Source: an uncultured delta proteobacterium | GTDB taxonomy: Bacteria; Desulfobacterota; Desulfomonilia; UBA1062 | Assembly (NCBI GenBank): GCA_963752595.1 | Contig: CAVVYZ010000001.1 | Coordinates: 388,961 to 452,960, forward strand | Direction: 5' to 3' | DNA: 64,000 bases | Shown here: piece by piece, positions 16,677 through 27,957 of the stretch | Numbering within the stretch: the stretch's first letter is position 1 | How the letters are laid out: each line of letters begins with the position of its first letter | The notes under the pieces: generated by a model | The model's input: only the letters and a program-made list of their open reading frames with translations | What the model was told of the DNA's origin: nothing | Databases searched by the model: none | Translations under genes and position numbers: made by a program

Positions 16677-18094
16677 GAGCCGATTGCAAAACTCTCAGCC
16701 GGTTTAGATTTTGAAGCCCAAAGCCGCTGTTACTTTCTATGTTCAAGGTCATGAGAGCTGTTTACCTGATGTTACCATTCTAAAAATTGCCCAAATGCGG
16801 ATTTTCGGGCGTAGCTGTCCGCCATACTGCACGGGAAGTACCGAGAATATGTCCTAGTTTGCATGTACACCTTTCAACAAAGCATCTGAAAAAGCTGATT
16901 CGCGGTTATGACAATGAGCCCGAACACGAGATGTGCCATGATCTTGGATGCCCCCCCTTACCCGGATATGATTTCCTCCGTGGTTGTCTTTCAGATACGA
17001 GTTTACTCTCTCACTACTGCTCCTTTGCGCAAAACGAGCTTTCCTGGCTGGATCAAGCGGGATCTTCTCTCCTCGCCTCTGGTTGGGATCAATGATCGGA
17101 ACATGCGAGAGTGCCTCACTGAATTCCTTGATCTGCGGCGCATCATAGGCGGAATCCATAAGATCATACAGACTCACCACCCGCTTCGACGTCATCTGCA
17201 TAAGCGGTATCGCTGCCTGAGAATCATGCAATGACGCAGAGGTTAATAATGCACTCACCGGAATATCCCCATCGATACAGTCGATATGCAGCTTGTATCC
17301 CCTCCGGGTCATCTTGTATCCCTTGCTGTCTACCTTGGTCCCTACAGCACAGTGATACGGCAGATCCTTTAGATTCTCCTCCAGGCTCCGGCCAACCTGA
17401 AGATCCAGCCTCTTCGGAGGCTTGGGAACAACTTCTTCTCCCTGCCTGGGGCGACCCCGTTTCCTCTTCGGCACCGACGCAGTTTCACCCGCTTCTTTCT
17501 TTATCGTCTTCTCTCGTCTCTCGTGCCTCTATGGCCGTCGCATCCCGGCTCACATGACCCACAAGCTTGTCCCCACAATGCTCCTTCACCATGGCCTCGT
17601 GGATCTTCTGTGGCAGGCATCCATGGGAGTACTCCCCAAACGCCCGGCAAAAGGTCGACTCAGAGGGAATATCTCCTCTCGTCTCCCATCCGCATAACCG
17701 CCTCGGATTCTTGCACCCCCTCAGATACTCTATGAGCACCTTCGTCGTCTCAAAATTGTATACCGCCTTCGCCACAAACGCCTTGGCGATTGAGACCCTG
17801 TCCTCTCGCTTCCTCCCTATCCCGATCCAGCGATACCCCTGCATGTGCTTCGGCAGGTCCATCAGACAGACAACTCTCACAAATTGCTGCTCCTTATCAC
17901 TCAACGGATCGAGTCTCTCTTCCAACCATGGAAAAATCTCGCCTGTGTGGTATTCCATATCTCGAAGAGATTGCTCATCGCTTCTCCTTTCTTTTTTGCT
18001 CAGCACAAAAAGAATAGAGCTTTCTCTTCACTATTTCATTACTTATATGCTGATTCGCAATATTATCCCTCATTGTGAGTTTTGCAATCGGCTC
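16677..18094 (-). mobile_element. Insertion sequence (IS5/IS1182-like DDE transposase), degenerate
   Basis: Perfect 18-bp terminal inverted repeats GAGCCGATTGCAAAACTC (16677-16694) / GAGTTTTGCAATCGGCTC (18077-18094); no clear target duplication; family assignment tentative. Confidence 0.88.
16880..17980 (-). pseudogene. Frameshifted DDE transposase (ends approximate)
   Basis: RRLCGW..IPSESTF.RAF, SRDATAIEAR, GYKLH, SASLHDSQ, LMDSAYD, ERVNS motifs spread over different frames. Confidence 0.85.
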
Positions 18095-18952: not shown

Positions 18953-19106
18953 GAGCTGCCTATTCGGGCAGGCAAGGTCTGTCTTCCGGGGCACAGCGCT
19001 TGGTTTCGCAAGCTGAGTAGTGTTATACCCGGAGGGAAAAAATGTATTAAAGCAGGGGCATGGCCTGACAGGGCTATGCCCCTGCAAATTTTCTGCAACA
19101 GGAACA

Positions 19107-20746
19107 ATGGAAATGGAAGCCGTTGATATTTATCAGGAAGTCGAAGAATTTAAGGACGCTGACAAGCAACTTGAAAAGGAAGTGGCGAGGCGGCGTACAT
19201 TCGGCATCATCAGCCATCCGGATGCGGGGAAAACCACGCTGACAGAGAAACTTCTGCTCTTCGGGGGTGCGATTCAGCTCGCTGGGACGATCAAGGCCCG
19301 CAAGGCAGCCCGCCACGCGACGAGCGACTGGATGAAGATCGAACAGGAACGCGGTATCTCCGTAACCACCTCGGTAATGAAGTTCACACTATCATGGCTT
19401 CGAGATCAACCTCCTCGACACCCCGGGCCACCAGGACTTTTCCGAAGATACCTACCGGGTGCTTACCGCAGTGGATTCTGCGCTCATGGTAATCGACAGC
19501 GCCAAGGGTGTGGAACCCCAGACCGAGAAGCTCATGGAGGTATGCCGGATGCGCAATACCCCCATCATGACCTTCATCAACAAGCTTGACCGGGAAGGTC
19601 TATCGCCGCTGGACCTGTTGACAGACATCGAGGAAAAACTGCAGATCGAGTGCGTACCGTTAAGCTGGCCCATCGGCATGGGCAAGCAGCTTCCGGGGCG
19701 TCTATAACCTCTACCGCAAGCAGATCCATCTCTTCACCCCGGGAAAGGCAACCAAGGACCAGGACGGCGTCCTGATAACCGATTTGAACGACCGGAAGCT
19801 GGATGAGCTACTGGGCAGCCAGGCGCAGCAGCTGCGCGAAGACGTGGAGCTTATCGAGGGTGTGCTGCCCAAGTTCAACCGGGATGAGTATCTCAAAGGA
19901 AATCAGACGCCGGTTTTCTTCGGCAGCGCCATCAACAACTTCGGTGTACGCGAGATGCTCGATGTCTTTGTGGAGATGGCCCCGCGTCCGGGGATGCGTC
20001 AGGCAGAGACTCGTGGAGTCTCTCCCCTTGAGCAGCCGTTTTCCGGGTTTACCTTCAAGATCCAGGCAAACATGGACCCTGCCCACCGTGACCGTATCGC
20101 CTTTTTCAGGATATGCTCCGGCAAGTTCACGCGCGGCATGAAGGTCATGCATCACCGGATCGGCAAAGAGGTGATCCTGTCCAATGCCACCATCTTCATG
20201 GCCCAGGACCGGACGAACGTCGAAGAAGCCTATCCGGGCGACATAATCGGCATCCACAACCACGGCACCATCCAGATCGGCGATACCTTCACCGAAAAGG
20301 AGCCGCTCAAGTTCCTGGGCATCCCTTACTTTGCGCCCGAGCATTTCCGGCGGGTGATCCTCAAAAACCCCATGAAGTTCAAGCAGCTCCAGAAGGGCCT
20401 CGTTCAGCTGAGTGAAGAGGGCGCGGTGCAGGTCTTCAAGCCCCTTGTCGGCAACAACTACATCCTGGGCGCGGTAGGCGTGCTCCAGTTCGACGTGGTC
20501 ATGGAACGGCTGCGGGACGAGTACGGTGTGGATGCTGCCTATGAGCCTGTGGAGTATATCGGCGCCCGCTGGATCGAGTGCGATGACGCTAAGATCCTCA
20601 GGAAGTTCGAAAAGAGCTACCAGGGATCTCTCGCCAGGGATGCAGGCGGGTATCTTACCTATCTGGCACCGAACCAGTGGCGTCTGAAAAACGCGCACGA
20701 AGAGTGGCCGGAGATCAAATTCCTGAAGACACGGGAACACAATTGA
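19107..20746 (+). CDS. prfC: Peptide chain release factor 3 (two frameshifts near 19390 and 19690, probably sequencing error)
   Basis: [29 protein letters not shown] (shifted frame), [32 protein letters not shown]. Confidence 0.93.
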
Positions 20747-20776
20747 CATATACCTTCGTGAATACGGAGGAAATCC

Positions 20777-21784
20777 ATGGACAGGGCTGCTGACTTCGAA
20801 CACCTCACCCCCGAGGTGCTGCTCGATGTGGTGGAAAACGCGGCAGGCATCCGCTTTACCGGTCTCACCATCCCGTTACCGAGCTATATCAACCGGGTTT
20901 ACGAGCTTCAGACGAGATCCGGCGAACGTCTCATCGCCAAATTCTACCGCCCGAACCGCTGGAGCAGGACTGCACTCGAGGATGAGCACCAGTTCCTCGC
21001 GGATTGCACCGAGTCCGAGATCCCTGTCGTGAGCCCGTGTAAGCTGGCTGACGGCAGTACCCTGGGACAGACTGACGACTGTTTTTTTGCGCTCTTCCCC
21101 AAGAAGGCAGGCCGCGAATTCGAGCTGAATACCGACGAGGACCTCCGTAGGGTGGGCACGCTCATCGCCCGCATCCATCTCGCAGGCCAGGCGCGCACAC
21201 CGAAGGACAGGATTACCCTGCACCCGATGAAATCCACGCAGAATGATCTGGAGTTCGTGATCAAGGGAGGTTTCATCGTTCCTGAGTTCAGGCAGGTTTT
21301 TGAGGATATCACGCTGCGCATTGTGGAGGGCATCACCCCGCTCTTCGAAGGGGCGGAATACATCCGGATTCATGGGGACTGTCACCGGGGCAACATTCTC
21401 GACCGGCCCGGCGAGGGCCTCATGGCCATTGATTTTGACGATATGATGATCGGCCCTCCTGTGCATGATCTCTGGATGCTCCTGCCCGACCATGCCGGCC
21501 GTTCCCGTCGTGAAATCGAACTCCTGCTCGACGGCTACGAGCAGTTCCGGGAATTCGAATACTCATCGATCCGGCTTATCGAGCCTTTACGGTTCATGCG
21601 GATAGTCTATTTCCTTGCCTGGACCGCTCGGCAATACCACGATTATGCCTTCCAGGCCAATCACCCCGACTGGGGCAGCGAGATCTTCTGGCAGCGTGAA
21701 ATCTCGGACCTGAGCCACCAGTTTCAGGTGATCATGGAGCACAAGGTAGCCTGGGAGGAAGGACGATTCTTCGGGGGAGAGTAG
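20777..21784 (+). CDS. srkA: Stress-response Ser/Thr kinase SrkA/RdoA
   Basis: SYINRVY, KFYRP.RWS...LEDEH, RIHGDCH.GNIL, DFDD. Confidence 0.9.
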   Translation: MDRAADFEHLTPEVLLDVVENAAGIRFTGLTIPLPSYINRVYELQTRSGERLIAKFYRPNRWSRTALEDEHQFLADCTESEIPVVSPCKLADGSTLGQTDDCFFALFPKKAGREFELNTDEDLRRVGTLIARIHLAGQARTPKDRITLHPMKSTQNDLEFVIKGGFIVPEFRQVFEDITLRIVEGITPLFEGAEYIRIHGDCHRGNILDRPGEGLMAIDFDDMMIGPPVHDLWMLLPDHAGRSRREIELLLDGYEQFREFEYSSIRLIEPLRFMRIVYFLAWTARQYHDYAFQANHPDWGSEIFWQREISDLSHQFQVIMEHKVAWEEGRFFGGE

Positions 21785-21960
21785 GTGCTTAAAGAGCATC
21801 GGCTTAAAAAACTCCGGGGGCGGATAAGGGTTCTCTTGGAACGAAAGGTTCATGTCGGAATCTTCAGCAGTATCCTGTAGAATGGCTCCCAGTGAGATAT
21901 CAAGGTTTTGACGTTTAAATACTATAAATTACCGGCTGAAAGAAATTAAGTTCCATTTAC

Positions 21961-21987
21961 ATGAATCCTTTTCATCCGGGGAGCATC
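21961..21987 (+). promoter_or_regulatory. Bipartite motif ATRAATC-N16-CATC upstream of sRNA copy 1
   Basis: ATGAATC cttttcatccggggag CATC agaa. Confidence 0.6.
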
Positions 21988-21994
21988 AGAATCA

Positions 21995-22066
21995 TAGTAA
22001 CAAAGGTTATTAACCTCCTCTTTAGGATGGCGAGTCCTATGCCCTAGCCGCCATCCTATTTTTTTT
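21995..22066 (+). ncRNA. Putative small RNA, sibling 1 (anti-SD tract + terminator hairpin; 5' end inferred)
   Basis: ACCTCCTCTTTA, then stem TAGGATGGCG/CGCCATCCTA with loop AGTCCTATGCCCTAGC and a T-tract; paralog at 26530-26596. Confidence 0.6.
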
Positions 22067-22159
22067 GCCTGCAAAAAAAGATAAAATTACACGCCTGTCT
22101 TTCCGCCTCCCGATGATTCAGTTTTTATCTGCTGCTTTTAGCATCCCTTTCCACTCACG

Positions 22160-23044
22160 TTATTGCTCTGCATTTATCGGCATAATATTCCGGACGGCAG
22201 ACACCTTTCTCTGGCCCGCAGCAGGTTCGAACCTGTCCAGAAGGACCAGAAATGTGCCCATGGTATGGTTTGCCTCTATTCTCAACACGTCCTTGAGTTC
22301 GTCTGCCGAGAGATAGATCTTGATGTCGGCAGGTTTCTTCTTCGCCGCCGAGTTATGTTTATCGGCATCCAGATCTTTCGCCGTGGGAACGATCACCCAT
22401 GCATCCCGTTTTCCGCCGGGCCTTTCGATGACCGTCTTGTCCGTGCACTTCAAATGAAGCTCATACCGGCTTTTCCCGGTGTACACCTCGAATACCTGCT
22501 CGGTTCCTACCTTCCAGTCGAGCCCGCGGGCCAGGTAGGTAGCTGAAAAGGGATCAACGGTATACCTGTCCGTATGGATTTTCCGCACCTCCCCGTCAAC
22601 GATTTCGCCTCTTTTGAATTTCTTCTCCGAAGTCTGTATGGTGCCGTTATTCTGGAATTTTATAACGAATTCTTTCCCGGTGGATTTCACCTGCTGTTTT
22701 ATTTTTGTCTCCACCGGAGCAAGGGGGTCAAGATCTGTGAGGTTTTCCCCCCGGTAGCGGATCTTGTATATATAATCAATTTTATCATTGGTTTTGGCGT
22801 TTACCTGCATCCTGTACAAATCGCCCTCACGCTCTATCTCGATGCACGCCGTCCCGATGTTTACGCTATTGAATTCAAAGCAATAAAAGTACGTTCCCAA
22901 ACGGGGAAGGTAATAGGAATCGTTGAGCAGGGGAAGTATTCCTTTTGCCTCCGGGGCCGCTGCATGAAGGGGCTGTGAGAAACCCATAACCAGAGAGATG
23001 ATTGAAACCAGGATTGCAGGATACTTTTTTTGTCTTTTCATCAT
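22160..23044 (-). CDS. DUF3108-like exported protein
   Basis: GGGAGG RBS, signal peptide, VDPFSATY, VYTGKSRY, IYLSAD pattern. Confidence 0.65.
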   Translation of the reverse strand: MMKRQKKYPAILVSIISLVMGFSQPLHAAAPEAKGILPLLNDSYYLPRLGTYFYCFEFNSVNIGTACIEIEREGDLYRMQVNAKTNDKIDYIYKIRYRGENLTDLDPLAPVETKIKQQVKSTGKEFVIKFQNNGTIQTSEKKFKRGEIVDGEVRKIHTDRYTVDPFSATYLARGLDWKVGTEQVFEVYTGKSRYELHLKCTDKTVIERPGGKRDAWVIVPTAKDLDADKHNSAAKKKPADIKIYLSADELKDVLRIEANHTMGTFLVLLDRFEPAAGQRKVSAVRNIMPINAEQ

Positions 23045-24068
23045 ACTTCCTCCCATTGGCAAGGTGCTCCGACCGTTACTTCTTGCTGAGACGATAAGCA
23101 CCGGGAAATTGTCTACCGTCCGTAGCGGAATCACCGGTTCTCAAGATACTATGGCAGGGATCACAAGGAAACCGCATCGATTGCCCGATTCATGTCTCCG
23201 GCATCAGGAAGGATGATCCTGGAGCGAGGGGAGTCGAATGCGTATTCCCGGCATGCGTTATTTCCATAAACCCTCCATTCATTCCCTACGGACCGGACCA
23301 TCGTAACAAGAACTATGGGATAATGAGCAAAGAGCATACCATCCCCGGAGGCCGACTTGCTTGTTGAGGTACAGAACCGCATGGAATGACATCCGGCAGT
23401 AGTCATACAGATCATGCATGAAAGGCTGAGGCTCTTTGGAGCTGTTGCAGAAAACACACAGCAAGACCTGCAGGTGAAATCTTTTTTGGGCGATGATTCT
23501 CATCTCGGGTAGCTCTTGCCACAGACCAAGGGGCGCTTGTCAGATTCGATGACCCCTCTTATCATTATTCTTATAAAAAACGTAAAGGAGGAGAAGCGTC
23601 CGCACTCCCGGTTCACCATTACAGGTGGAGCGAGTGAGGGTTTTTAAGGAGCAGCCGATCCGCTGCCTACGTTCAGGCCAGGGCAATGCAGGCCTCGATG
23701 GAAAGGTGCACATCTTTGAATCGAGACAGCTGAATACTTGGGAACGTAACAAGCTACACATTCTTTGATTATCATATGCTGGTAACCCAAAAGAAACAGG
23801 TCTGAATGGTATAATCTGAACTATCAGCACAGCAGGATCATATCTCCTTGCCGCGAGAGGAAGGCTATCGATGCTTGGATCTCATGAGCGGGACTGTAAA
23901 TTATGGGCTGATTGGATACATCACAGGTGCGAAAATCTCTAAGAGAATATTTTTGCCTGTTTCTGCATGGGATATGAATTCCACGTGCAGAAAGAATCAC
24001 GTACCTGATACGGATAGAATACGGCCCGGTAGGCATTTCCGGACAAAACTGAAGAAAGGAGAAAGCGT

Positions 24069-25765
24069 ATGAAAAAATTCATACTTACATTTCTTATGAT
24101 GCTGGTTCCTCTTGGTCTGCTTGCGCAGCAGGGAACTATTCCGGCACTGGCGGTTATCACGAGCCCCGGATTTTTCACCGCCCTTGTTGCAGGGATTATC
24201 ATTGCCTTAGGTTTCCAGCTTATCCTGACTAATTTATCCGCAGCCATAGGTTTGAGTGCCCTGCACATGGGAGCGGAAAGAATTGAAAAGGCGATAAGGA
24301 CCGGTTTTAAGCAAGGAAAACAGGAGGAATCATCCGAACCCATGGGGAGGAAGGTTCGAAAAATAAATGCGGCATTCGGGGTATGGGCAATCATAACCAC
24401 CAGCATTTCCCTGTTTTTCGCAGCCTTGCTGGCGGTAAAAATCAGCACAGCCCTCAATCTTATCGCCGGCGTAACCCTCGGCCTCGCAATCTGGGGGCTC
24501 TTCTATCTCATCACGGCGGCGCTCGAGATGACAGCAGTATCATCCATGGTCGGTTCGCTGATGGACATCGTACGTTCAGGCTTCAGGACTGTCTCCGATA
24601 CGACTTCCGGCATCTTTCTCAAATCAGGCGAGCAGAAAACGGTCGATACCGCCCGGGAGATCACCGATGCAGTGCGCGATGAAATATTCGGAGATGCCAA
24701 TGTAAGAAGGACGATTCAGAACTATATCGATTCGCTGAAACCCGATTATAATCAGATCCGTAAAGAGCTCACCGCGGTCCTGAATGATGCGGAGATCAAT
24801 GTAAGATCCTCGTATGCCCGGGGTACTACCACCGCACATATCCATACGGGAACCAGCGCTCCATCCCCGGCGGAGGCAAAGGAAAAGGCCCAGGCAGCAG
24901 CAGGCACGGTAAAAGAAGAGGCGAGAAAGGTGCGCGAAGAGGCCCAATCCGACAAGGATCTGGCAGAAAAGATCGCCGATACCACTATGGAACTGGCAGG
25001 CTTGTCACGACAGGAGGCAGAAGCGTACCGGAAGAAGCTGGAGCAGTACCTGGCCGGCACCGGGAAGACTGAGCTGAACCCCGAGGGGATCAAACGCGAT
25101 ATCGACAAGCTTGTCTCTGAGAATCCGAAAGAAGGGGTGGATGCAATCCTTGCCCGGCTCAGTGATATCGACCGTTCCACCATAACGTCAATCCTCGCAC
25201 AGAGAAAGGATATGAACAGGGACGAGGCGAACCGGGTCGTGGACATGGTTGCCGGAACGGTGGACAGCCTCAGATCGAGGTATCAGAAGACAAAAACAAC
25301 GACTCAGGCCGCTTCACGGCAGCAGCAGGGTGCATCAGAGGGACGATTGCGGCAATACCTGGATTCCCTCGATAATCCGGAGCTCCACTACGCCGATATC
25401 AAGACCGATCTGGAGGCCTTCTTCATGATCCCAAGGCAGGCACCATGTCATTGGTCGACAGGTTGAAATCCATTGACCGTCATGACTTGAAACAGATGAT
25501 CACAGAGAGCGGGCTGAACATCAAAGAAGAAGACATCGACCGGCTGGTAGGAAGGATAGAAGAAGCAAAAGATTCCGTGATCGACAAGACAGAGCAGATG
25601 AGGAGAGAGGTTGTTGCGAGGGTGCAGAAGGCTGAAGAAGAATCCATCCATTACGCAGATGAGGCGCGGAGGGTTGCCGCATCTGCTGCCTGGTGGGTTT
25701 TCGGCTCGGCACTGGTATCCGGAGTTGCAGCCGCGCTGGGTGGATTGGTCGGCCTTATGGTCTAG
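24069..25765 (+). CDS. Membrane protein with N-terminal TMs, long amphipathic helical region and C-terminal TM (one frameshift ~25420)
   Basis: AAGGAG RBS; F..ALVAG.IIALGFQL.LTNLS.A.GLS and AAWWVFGSALVSG termini; ELNPEGIKRD/ELHYADIKTD internal repeat. Confidence 0.65.
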
Positions 25766-26004
25766 CATACCCATGAGCTTGATTTACTGAGCAATGGATC
25801 CCGCTGTATGCCATACTTTACTCGCTTGCGGCGGGATACTTCATTGATGCGCGCGTATGGGTCTTTTCTGGTGTCCGGCGTGTGGTCTCCTGGAAATTTA
25901 TCTTGGCTGTTTTATCGAGGCATTTCATAACGTTATTGACTTTAGGGACTGGAGCACGCTATTCAGCACAGCAAAGATTGAGAGAGAAAGGAAGAAGGCA
26001 GCAT

Positions 26005-26328
26005 ATGAAATCTCTGGCAGGATCACAAAGGACGTATCTCAGGGGGTTGGCGCACAAGCTGCGGCCGGTTATCCAGGTGGGTAAGAACGGTATTACCCCC
26101 GAACTGATCAAGGCTGTGGACGAAGCCCTTACCATCCATGAGCTCATCAAGATCAAATATGGTGATTTCAAAGAGGAGAAAAAGGAACTCTCCGAGGATA
26201 TTGCTCAACAGACTTCGAGCGAGACAGTCGGCCTGATCGGTAACGTCGTCATACTCTACCGGCAGAATCCTGATGAAGAAAAGCGAAGAATAATCCTGCC
26301 TGGGAAGCAGACAAAGAAAAACCCGTAG
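26005..26328 (+). CDS. yhbY: CRM-domain ribosome assembly protein YhbY
   Basis: LRGLAH.L.PVIQVGKNG...HELIKIK...IGNVVILYR. Confidence 0.93.
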   Translation: MKSLAGSQRTYLRGLAHKLRPVIQVGKNGITPELIKAVDEALTIHELIKIKYGDFKEEKKELSEDIAQQTSSETVGLIGNVVILYRQNPDEEKRRIILPGKQTKKNP

Positions 26329-26495
26329 CTTATCCCCGGGCGGCACTGACTGTCCTCTGCAGAGCTGGTAATGGTTTGGAACATATAAGATTTGTAAATA
26401 CCAAGAAGCTTTCTCAAGCAAATCACCAAGATTGGGAATAAATAATGAAGAAACAGCCTGACTTGCCGTAATATACCGGATAGTCTCTTCCCTGC

Positions 26496-26522
26496 ATGAA
26501 TCTTTTTCCTTCCTGGTGCATC
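26496..26522 (+). promoter_or_regulatory. Bipartite motif ATRAATC-N16-CATC upstream of sRNA copy 2
   Basis: ATGAATC tttttccttcctggtg CATC agaa. Confidence 0.6.
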
Positions 26523-26529
26523 AGAAATA

Positions 26530-26596
26530 GAACATAACTTAATACCTCCTCTTTATGGATGGCGAGTCTTATGCCCTAACCGCCATCCATTTTTTT
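26530..26596 (+). ncRNA. Putative small RNA, sibling 2 (5' end inferred)
   Basis: ACCTCCTCTTT, then stem ATGGATGGCG/CGCCATCCAT with loop AGTCTTATGCCCTAAC and a T-tract. Confidence 0.6.
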
Positions 26597-26781
26597 ATCC
26601 GCCTTACTGCAAAATAGACCAATCTCCTACGTCCATGTATAAAATTGTTTGACAGAAAATCTTTGATTAGTTACGGTCATATAGTAATACAATAAGATTA
26701 ATAAAGGCATCAGCCTGCCTGGACCGTGTGAGCCAGAAAAGCGGAGGCCCTGACGGGACATGATGCATGAGGAGGGTTTAC

Positions 26782-27957
26782 ATGAGAGATGTTTTCGTTG
26801 TCAGCGCTGTAAGGACCGCAGTGGGCAAGCAGAAAGGATACTTCCGCGACTTCCTTGCGCCTGAACTTCTGGCATTGGCATTGAATGAATCCATAGGCCG
26901 CATCGATCTCGACGGTAATCTTGTAGACGACGTCATCACCGGCTGCGTCTATCAGATAGGCGAACAGGGATTCAACTTGGCCCGTATGGCCGTCCTGGCG
27001 TCGAAACTACCTGTGACGATTAGGCGGGATTACCGTGAACCGCCAGTGCGGCAGCTCGCTGTCGGCTATACAGATCGCTGCAGGGATGATCGGCTCCGGT
27101 ACCCATGATGTCATCATAGCCAGCGGTTGCGAGCTCATGACCAAGTACGGCATCGCCTCCGACATGAACTGTACCCTTGCCAACGGGCAGACACGCCGGA
27201 CACCCGATAGGAAAGTTCTACCTTGATAAATACGGCATTCCGAGCCAGACCGATGCCGCCCAGGCAATCGCGAACAGGTGGAAGATAACCAAGGAGGAAT
27301 GCCAGGATTTCGCTATCGCGAGCCACAAGAAGGCCCACAATGCCGCTCTGGAGGGCAGATTCTCCGGGGAAATATTCCCTGTGAAAGGACTCGACAAAGA
27401 CGGGAACCCGATCAACTGCATGACGGACGAGCCGGTACGTCCCGGAACAACCCGGGAAGCGCTCGACAGCCTCAAGGTTATCCCCGGCACCGAATGGATG
27501 ACTGCCGGCCTCTCACAGCACGGTTACCGACGGCGCATCGGCAATGGTGCTGATGAGCGGCCTGATGGCGAACAAGCTTAACCTCACGCCGCTGGCCCGC
27601 GTGGTTGCCAGTGCGGTTACCGGTTCCGACCCCGTACTCATGCTCACCGGTCCCATCTCGGTGACACCGAAAGTGCTTGCCAAAGCAAACCTGACCATGG
27701 ACGACATCGACATCTTCGAGGTCAACGAGGCATTTGCTCCCATCCCGCTTGCATGGGCAAAAGAGCTGGGTGCTGATACGGACAGGCTCAACGTCAACGG
27801 AGGGGCTCTGGCCCTTGGTCACCCGGTGGGCAACAGCGGATGCCGGTTGAGTGTCACCGCAGTACATGAATTGAAGAGGCGCGGCGGTAAATATGCCCTC
27901 GTAACGCTCTGCACCGGAGGTGGGCAGGCACCCGCAACTATTTTCGAGCGTATATAA
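26782..27957 (+). CDS. Thiolase (acetyl-CoA C-acyltransferase); ~3 frameshifts, probably sequencing error
   Basis: VSAVRTAVG, NRQCGSSL, EVNEAFA, NGGALALGHP, LCTGGGQA. Confidence 0.9.

What the first reader, a model, noticed from the sequence alone, without database searches (positions are those of the whole stretch)
21961..26596. Pair of sibling small RNAs with anti-Shine-Dalgarno tract, conserved loop and shared promoter motif
Two intergenic elements 4.5 kb apart (21961-22066 and 26496-26596) share three modules separated by diverged spacers: ATGAATC-N16-CATCAGAA; ACCTCCTCTTTA (complement of an extended SD, TAAAGAGGAGGT); and a GGATGGCG/CGCCATCC stem with a 16-nt loop AGTCYTATGCCCTARC plus U-tract. 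The stem base covaries (TA..TA versus AT..AT). Each lies over 200 nt beyond the upstream stop codon and has an unusually large conserved loop, so it is not just a terminator. Inference: a family of ~70-nt trans-acting sRNAs that block ribosome binding under an alternative sigma, analogous to sigmaE sRNAs or CCUCC-motif sRNAs. I do not recognise it as a described family.
Basis: partly seen in the sequence, partly recalled or inferred. Interest (0 to 1): 0.8.

Follow-up and report, generated by a model that had tools for sequence, protein, structure and literature searches.

The report
Stress small-RNA family with two seeds
These two elements belong to a conserved family of short DNA motifs in uncultured anaerobic bacteria that are likely small regulatory RNAs made under stress and are predicted to block translation of mRNAs, among them that of the DNA-packing protein HU; relatives sit at the tail of a stress-chaperone gene, likely showing how such RNAs arise.

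Summary
The two elements belong to a family with four copies in this genome. It is found in 44 of 51 other genomes of the family (Desulfomonilia, UBA1062 group) and 0 of 70 of the sister family, and has no Rfam match. Every member keeps ACCTCCTC, a covarying terminator stem, TGCCC in the loop and a U-tract. Members split cleanly by promoter. 47 of 47 of the window's kind carry TG(A/C)ATC-N16/17-CATC, a motif also found before rpoH (30/30) and a conserved ECF sigma gene (30/30). 23 of 23 second-tier loci lie behind a sigma-54 promoter: 15 as the 3' UTR of a zraP-like gene, 8 without it. There is no conserved antisense peptide, so this is not a type I toxin-antitoxin. The best target is hupB (HU): loop and anti-SD pair with two sites in the expected order, and the site is kept in 32 of 33 genomes of five genera. 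It was found post hoc and is missing in two sRNA-bearing genera. No transcript data were available.

The parts
21961..21991 (+). Copy A promoter motif: -35-like TGAATC(C)TTTT, 16-nt spacer, -10-like CATCAGAA; predicted ECF-sigma promoter
   Evidence: same motif before rpoH and before the ECF gene
21994..22066 (+). Copy A predicted sRNA, about 73 nt (5' end inferred from the promoter)
   Evidence: 88 bits with model R1, which was built from it
22013..22022 (+). Copy A anti-Shine-Dalgarno seed ACCTCCTCTT, unpaired in the fold of the short RNA; ACCTCCT equals the 3' tail of the window's 16S rRNA
22023..22066 (+). Copy A terminator: 10-bp stem 22023-22032/22049-22058, 16-nt loop 22033-22048 with invariant TGCCC (predicted second seed), U-tract 22059-22066
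26496..26526 (+). Copy B promoter motif TGAATC-N16-CATCAGAA; predicted ECF-sigma promoter
26529..26596 (+). Copy B predicted sRNA, about 68 nt (5' end inferred)
   Evidence: 87 bits
26544..26553 (+). Copy B anti-Shine-Dalgarno seed ACCTCCTCTT
26555..26596 (+). Copy B terminator: stem 26555-26564/26581-26590, loop 26565-26580, U-tract 26590-26596
20777..21784 (+). Upstream neighbour of A: SrkA-type Ser/Thr kinase (context only)
   Evidence: NF008738, 322 bits, above cut-off
26005..26328 (+). Upstream neighbour of B: YhbY RNA-binding protein (context only)
   Evidence: TIGR00253, 87 bits, above cut-off

Best explanation
The two elements are sibling copies of a conserved, lineage-restricted family that likely encodes ~70-nt base-pairing small RNAs, likely transcribed by a stress ECF sigma factor and predicted to block ribosome binding with two seeds, one anti-Shine-Dalgarno stretch and the terminator loop. 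Shown from sequence: conservation, the covarying stem, the invariant seeds, the promoter motif and its sharing with rpoH and an ECF gene, and the sigma-54/zraP-like branch. Inferred steps, each with its own odds: a discrete plus-strand RNA is made (0.88); it acts by pairing at ribosome-binding sites, probably with Hfq (0.75); the window copies depend on an ECF sigma (0.8), namely the family-wide 202-aa ECF with its small soluble zinc-finger partner (0.6); hupB (HU) is a direct target, the loop pairing with the first ~20 nt of the mRNA and ACCUCCU covering the SD 16 nt further on (0.45). The same RNA module serves a second stress circuit. In relatives it is the 3' UTR of a sigma-54-driven zraP-like chaperone gene beside a ZraS/ZraR-like pair, as CpxQ is for cpxP. 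In some genomes, this one included, that ORF is gone and the promoter is predicted to drive the RNA alone.
For: Distribution: 44 of 51 other family genomes, 0 of 70 in the sister family. Structure: 98.7% of 461 cells paired; 5 of 9 pairs show double-sided changes; 0 of 500 shuffles reach this (alignment fitted to the model, sequences related). Promoter: 47 of 47 first-tier versus 0 of 23 second-tier members. It lies before rpoH in 30 of 30 loci (mean score 18.2 versus -5.7 inside the genes) and at the start of the 202-aa ECF gene in 30 of 30. That ECF is in 34 of 34 good genomes; the second ECF lacks the motif and was not found in genera that have the promoter. hsp20 genes score low for the motif, so it is not the RpoH promoter. 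Second tier: sigma-54 box in 23 of 23, TGTATA-N5-TATACA in 21 of 23, a ZraP-like ORF ending 28-143 nt before the seed in 15 of 23 (PF13801 above cut-off for the 3 tested; divergent ZraS-like kinase). HU: loop duplex among the best 4 of 4276 called genes, the only gene with GGGCATRGGR at -62..-18, and 0 of 1000 shuffled loops do as well. Both sites pair at once in co-folding. The site is in 32 of 33 hupB leaders of five genera and 0 of 6 leaders of the three genera sampled without the RNA. The purE control site is not conserved. In genus g9 the loop has changed to GCCTCCTTTGCCC, and an MFS transporter carries its exact 13-nt complement over the SD in 4 of 4 genomes.
Against: There is no transcript, Hfq-binding or repression data. 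The HU site was picked post hoc from 15 of 442 strong-SD genes with GGGCA upstream, and ranks 7th to 14th, not first, on the joint score. It is absent in g9 (0 of 4) and g2 (0 of 1), and only a wobble variant in g12 (0 of 3 exact), all of which have the RNA. The site changes state only about 3 times on a rough tree, so the correlation rests on few events. The neighbouring TGGGA is also kept in leaders that lack the full site, so the leader may be conserved for another reason. Net binding after unfolding is modest (-6 to -10 kcal/mol). Anti-SD-only target scans gave nothing above shuffled controls. The motif at the ECF gene abuts the start codon and has 17-nt spacing with TATC, an awkward place for an autoregulatory promoter. 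No ECF group with this exact motif turned up in the supplement passages seen.
Confidence: 0.62

Rival explanations
1. They are stress sRNAs as above, but their main targets are envelope mRNAs (porin-like or exported proteins, inner-membrane transporters), as for MicA, RybB and CpxQ; the HU match is incidental.
For: The second tier sits in a Zra-like envelope circuit. A porin-like gene ranks 1st for copy C and 10th for copy A on the joint score. A DUF6160 exported protein pairs 16 of 17 nt with copy B. The g9 target candidate is an MFS transporter.
Against: The porin-like leaders keep only a short GGGC(A/C), with weak and scattered energies in the 24 of 30 leaders that could be read. The DUF6160 match is no better than shuffles and is conserved in genomes that lack copy B's spacer. 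The ECF partner has no membrane helix, and the motif precedes rpoH, rRNA and a helicase rather than envelope-repair genes. This reading is compatible with the best one if both target classes exist.
Confidence: 0.2
2. The RNA does not pair with mRNAs. It is a decoy that binds a protein (Hfq, ribosomal protein S1 or a ribosome-associated factor) through its pyrimidine-rich strand and UGCCC loop, or it sponges another RNA.
For: TGCCC and ACCTCCTC are invariant across all tiers while the flanks vary, as a protein footprint would be. No target stands out on anti-SD pairing alone.
Against: Loop changes are mostly U/C exchanges that keep pairing with the G-rich HU site, and the shifted g9 loop has its own exact complement. 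The plus strand has only one GGA, inside the stem, so it is not CsrB-like.
Confidence: 0.1
3. They are copied promoter-terminator cassettes or plain terminators of upstream genes, with no RNA function.
For: The hairpin and U-tract are a good intrinsic terminator, and in 15 of 23 second-tier loci it ends a gene. Copies sit in different gene contexts.
Against: A terminator does not need an invariant 8-nt strand and loop across ten genera, nor a promoter at fixed spacing 30-58 nt upstream. Copy number is 1 to 4 with no terminal repeats.
Confidence: 0.05
4. The minus strand is the gene: a small peptide behind AAGAGGAGG, with the plus strand as its antitoxin (type I toxin-antitoxin).
For: An ATG lies 3-11 nt behind the minus-strand SD in 23 of 70 members, above shuffles (mean 13, maximum 26; relatives are not independent).
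Against: 47 of 70 lack it, and the peptides run from 2 to over 100 residues without family-wide likeness; copy B gives four residues. No sigma-70-like promoter lies on the minus strand of 21700-26800.
Confidence: 0.03

Closest known systems
Sigma-E-dependent sRNAs MicA, RybB, MicL (enterobacteria)
   Same: About 70-80 nt, several siblings under one ECF sigma, Hfq in the host, translational repression under stress (PMC6737893, passages read).
   Different: No sequence match in Rfam; a different promoter consensus; the candidate anti-sigma is small and soluble; the best target found is HU, not porins.
CpxQ (3' UTR of cpxP)
   Same: A highly conserved 3' UTR of a Spy/CpxP/ZraP-type periplasmic stress protein gene, serving as the non-coding arm of a two-component response (PMC9438474, passages read). 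Applies to the second tier.
   Different: Here the host gene is ZraP-like under sigma-54 with a ZraS/ZraR-like pair; there is no sequence likeness; the same RNA also exists without the ORF and under an ECF promoter, which is the state of the two window copies.
RaiZ (Salmonella)
   Same: An sRNA that represses an HU mRNA at its ribosome-binding site using a single strand plus a stem-loop (PMC5391140, passages read).
   Different: RaiZ comes from the raiA 3' end and depends on ProQ; no homology; here the predicted second seed is the terminator's own loop.
Anti-SD sRNAs AbcR1/2 (alpha-r15) and NfeR1/cuckoo (alpha-r14)
   Same: CU-rich anti-SD motifs in unpaired regions; multicopy (PMC7143759, passages read).
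   Different: Those have three hairpins with the motif in loops and occur in Alphaproteobacteria; this family has one hairpin with the motif 5' of it; no Rfam hit.

Membership tests
Any Rfam 15 family | Covariance-model score at or above the gathering threshold | tested here: not met
   None in the window at these places; best weak hits 20 bits, E 1.4, against cut-off 50; none over the elements in four loci at E up to 1.
Hfq-type trans-acting sRNA (kind) | Intergenic, own promoter, intrinsic terminator with U-tract | tested here: met
Hfq-type trans-acting sRNA (kind) | Conserved unpaired seed with a conserved complementary site in an mRNA elsewhere | tested here: inconclusive
   hupB site in 32 of 33 leaders of five genera but missing in g9 and g2; found post hoc.
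Hfq-type trans-acting sRNA (kind) | Hfq encoded by the host | tested here: met
   (48 of 52 genomes; also in genera without the RNA).
Hfq-type trans-acting sRNA (kind) | Discrete transcript, Hfq binding, repression | not testable with these tools
   No RNA run could be laid on the stretch.
MicA/RybB/MicL (sigma-E sRNAs) | Sequence homology | tested here: not met
MicA/RybB/MicL (sigma-E sRNAs) | ECF-dependent promoter | tested here: inconclusive
   ECF-like motif shared with rpoH and an ECF gene; the sigma is assigned by co-occurrence only.
MicA/RybB/MicL (sigma-E sRNAs) | Outer-membrane protein mRNAs as targets | tested here: inconclusive
   A porin-like gene ranks high in one genome but its site is poorly conserved.
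CpxQ | 3' UTR of a cpxP gene under CpxR | tested here: not met
   Window copies follow srkA and yhbY with their own promoter; second-tier hosts are ZraP-like under sigma-54.
cuckoo / alpha-r14 / AbcR | Several hairpins with the anti-SD motif in loops | tested here: not met
   One conserved hairpin with the motif 5' of it.
Type I toxin-antitoxin | Conserved small peptide on the opposite strand | tested here: not met
REP/MITE | High copy number, terminal inverted repeats | tested here: not met
   1-4 copies per genome, at largely syntenic loci.
CsrB/RsmZ | Several GGA motifs in loops | tested here: not met
   One GGA, in the stem, although csrA is present.

The most novel reading that the evidence does not exclude
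One sRNA module caught in three states within one bacterial family: as the 3' UTR of a sigma-54 zraP-like chaperone mRNA (a non-coding arm of a Zra-type response), freed by loss of that ORF, and re-wired as multiplying siblings under an ECF sigma. It clamps the HU mRNA with two seeds, one of them its terminator loop, so that two stress circuits converge on nucleoid-protein synthesis, and loop and targets shift together between genera.
Probability: 0.3. Interest if true: 0.75.

Novelty: new variant of a known kind. Interest (0 to 1): 0.57.

Why it matters
My searches found no sRNA described for this group of uncultured anaerobes, whose named records include a phosphite oxidiser. The family gives a promoter, a sigma candidate and a target that can be tested in E. 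coli reporters without culturing the host. More widely, 3' UTRs are thought to be a breeding ground for sRNAs (PMC9438474). Here the same RNA is seen with its host ORF, without it, and under another sigma, which makes that route testable by comparison. It also predicts a CpxQ-like RNA arm for Zra-type systems.

Tried and rejected
Expression: no RNA holder was listed for window 20700-27000; this is no evidence either way. Rfam at gathering and E-value thresholds gave nothing. Earlier findings of the scan: nothing shown. A bare TG(A/C)ATC-N-CATC count showed no preference for 16 nt genome-wide (44 sites versus 21-57 at other spacings). Only the weighted motif did so (31 versus 9-16 sites above 16 bits, which includes the training copies). 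RpoH as the sigma: rejected, hsp20 leaders score at most 6.4. The second ECF (205 aa): rejected. I could not assign an ECF group; the supplement of PMC7826278 is cut as stored. Free duplex ranking was dominated by noise. DUF6160 and purE as targets: not supported by conservation. An intramolecular partner for the HU site at the end of lon: rejected, because that stretch varies while the site does not. This genome's nearest match to the g9 MFS protein is only 28% identical and lacks the site. A phylum sample gave 3 weak hits in 146 genomes outside the class; none has the loop motif. The hupB/lon tree has long-branch warnings and is used only to count changes.
Full report
Observation. Both elements are in the sequence as described. 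Copy A lies between an SrkA-type kinase and a convergent DUF3108 gene; copy B lies between yhbY and a thiolase. The cores are 93% identical over 54 nt, and the laid genome holds a third close copy. A covariance model built from 24 sequences finds a fourth, diverged copy at C22:136333-136409. The hairpins fold better than 199 and 200 of 200 shuffles. Rfam has no family for them.

Distribution. A hairpin pattern matched 19 of 36 genomes of the family and 0 of 24 of the sister family. The model matched 44 of 51 and 0 of 70. In a phylum sample of 151 genomes, only 3 weak hits lay outside the family. An exact pattern over the GTDB collection gave 40 loci, titled Desulfomonilia, Deltaproteobacteria, UBA1062, Phox-21 and similar MAGs, with one Spirochaetota-titled short contig. 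The family is thus the UBA1062 group of Desulfomonilia, which per 10.1101/2020.12.28.424620 (passages read) includes Ca. Phosphitivorax. Genera g4, g6, g7 and g8 (7 genomes, 77-100% complete) had no match.

Anatomy. Among 70 distinct members the base before CCTCCTC is always A (the pattern itself required CCTCCTC and TGCCC). The stem pairs in 98.7% of 461 cells, with double-sided changes at 5 of 9 pairs, above all 500 shuffles and all slid controls. That alignment was fitted to the model and the sequences are kin; the independent MAFFT alignment of 24 gave 2 such pairs. The 5' part is A-rich and variable in length. A minus-strand ATG follows the SD-like sequence in only 23 of 70 members, with peptides of 2 to over 100 residues, which rules out a conserved toxin.

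Promoter. First-tier members carry TG(A/C)ATC(C)TTT-spacer-CATC(T/A) at fixed spacing, 30-58 nt before the hairpin: 47 of 47, against 0 of 23 second-tier members. The motif lies before rpoH (identified) in the 30 best of 52 orthologous loci, and at the start of a 202-aa ECF sigma gene in the 30 best loci. That ECF is in 34 of 34 good genomes and is followed by an 87-aa protein with HxxxCxxC and no membrane helix (zf-HC2 E 0.0026, below cut-off). The other ECF tested lacks the motif and was not found in g5, g10 or g13. That an ECF sigma transcribes rpoH in E. coli is recalled, not from a call. The assignment rests on co-occurrence; the motif's position against the ATG is unexplained.

Second tier. 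I fetched 40 of the lower-ranked hits and examined 23 second-tier loci, the own fourth copy included. All 23 have a sigma-54 box upstream and 21 have TGTATA-N5-TATACA palindromes. In 15 a ZraP-like ORF ends 28-143 nt before the seed; in 8 there is no such ORF and the box is 48-194 nt from the seed. Three of the ORFs were scanned: PF13801 above cut-off, the ZraP equivalog below. In this genome the divergent gene best matches ZraS, below cut-off, and is followed by a response-regulator gene. Close relatives in genus g1 show both states, so loss of the ORF is the simplest reading; the direction towards the ECF-driven copies is inferred. The 23 loci and the 23 differ by one member. That ZraR is a sigma-54 activator of a divergent zraP is recalled; PMC6737893 (passages) supports only that ZraSR is a zinc-responsive envelope system with ZraP.

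Targets. Anti-SD pairing alone picked nothing above chance. The two invariant motifs predict an mRNA with GGGCA upstream of its SD. Fifteen of 442 strong-SD genes fit, among them the HU gene after lon. Its leader reads GTTTGGGCATGGGA, then 16 nt, then AGGAGGT and the start codon. The loop pairs at 13 of 14 positions (-20.4 kcal/mol for A, -17.6 for B), and both sites pair together in co-folding. Conservation was the held-out test: of 49 leaders, the site is in 12/12 g1, 5/5 g10, 13/14 g14, 1/1 g11 and 1/1 g5, and in none of g2 (1), g6 (3), g7 (1), g8 (2), g9 (4), g12 (3) or g13 (2). In g11 it is the perfect complement, and in g5 loop and site differ yet still pair fully. The hupB leader matched the two-part pattern in each of five genera searched; the other matches were not examined. 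Against this: g2, g9 and g12 have the RNA without the exact site; the label changes about three times on a rough tree with long-branch warnings; the joint rank is 7-14 of 4276. In g9 the loop is GCCTCCTTTGCCC, and an MFS transporter has its exact complement over the SD in 4 of 4 genomes. About 0.025 such genes are expected per genome using this genome's SD count, but the pattern came from one of the four and they are close kin. Gene starts came from my own crude caller, which over-calls.

Mechanism and comparison. The most likely reading is a stress-induced, Hfq-type repressor RNA with two seeds. It works like the sigma-E sRNAs in its ECF control and sibling copies, like CpxQ in its 3' UTR branch (PMC9438474, passages), like RaiZ in the proposed HU target (PMC5391140, passages), and like AbcR/NfeR1 in its anti-SD motif (PMC7143759, passages). 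It is a member of none of them. PMC4817254 and PMC4102768 were seen as search listings with the start of the abstract only. PMC7826278 was read as passages of text and of a supplement that is cut as stored, so an ECF group with this motif may be described in the part not seen.

Novelty. Searches for Desulfomonilia or Phosphitivorax with small RNA, CpxQ/ZraP/sigma54, hup mRNA with sRNA, ZraP with small RNA and Deltaproteobacteria sRNA families listed no description of this family or of a zraP 3' UTR RNA; the library lacks most subscription papers. Verdict: real, undescribed as far as searched, a new variant of a known kind. Interest 0.57, held down by the lack of expression data and an uncultured host.

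Noticed in passing
window 8967-8996 and 9067-9096: Two more copies of the promoter motif lie ahead of the sigma-70-like promoters of the rRNA operon; one is also there in G002.
   Followed up: partly
L410:580-1220 (G000 C20:51279-51920, minus): The family-wide ECF gene has (T)GAATCC-N17-TATCTAA directly against its ATG in 30 of 30 loci. A transcript from it would start inside the ORF, so it may drive only the downstream 87-aa zinc-finger partner, a shortened sigma, or block the gene.
   Followed up: partly
G000 C20:147589, C14:82932, C9:48666, C14:31658: The motif also precedes a tRNA/tuf-like region, lies inside a 579-aa ORF upstream of rpoD, and precedes a DEAD-box-like helicase and a 2-oxoacid oxidoreductase-like operon; these labels are read from the sequences, not from family scans.
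   Followed up: no
L480-L509: In other Desulfobacterota families, zraP-like genes often end in a CU-rich strand just before the terminator: CCTCC within 170 nt in 18 of 30, single-stranded before the hairpin in 9 of 30 by eye; control 552 of 3091. Two loci of family f58 show TGCCC and CCTCC together (30 best of over 200 matches).
   Followed up: partly
L150-L156, L159: A weaker tier (28-40 bits) has CTCCTCT or CCTCCCT plus a short terminator without the TGCCC loop, possibly further anti-SD sRNAs.
   Followed up: no
window 19020-20746, 24069-25765, 26782-27957: prfC, a large membrane-anchored gene and a thiolase are each split by frameshifts; frequent splits elsewhere suggest assembly indels.
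   Followed up: no
window 16854-18006 and L031:5227-6382: Near-identical transposase-like ORFs; one copy lies about 100 nt after the third sRNA copy.
   Followed up: no
G000 C9:233339 and C9:262112 leaders: Two hsp20 leaders share CCCTTGAA(A/T)T at a promoter-like distance, one followed by CCCTACAT: a likely RpoH promoter of this lineage.
   Followed up: no
L110: One full first-tier copy sits on a 1.1-kb contig of a record titled Spirochaetota; likely mis-binned.
   Followed up: no
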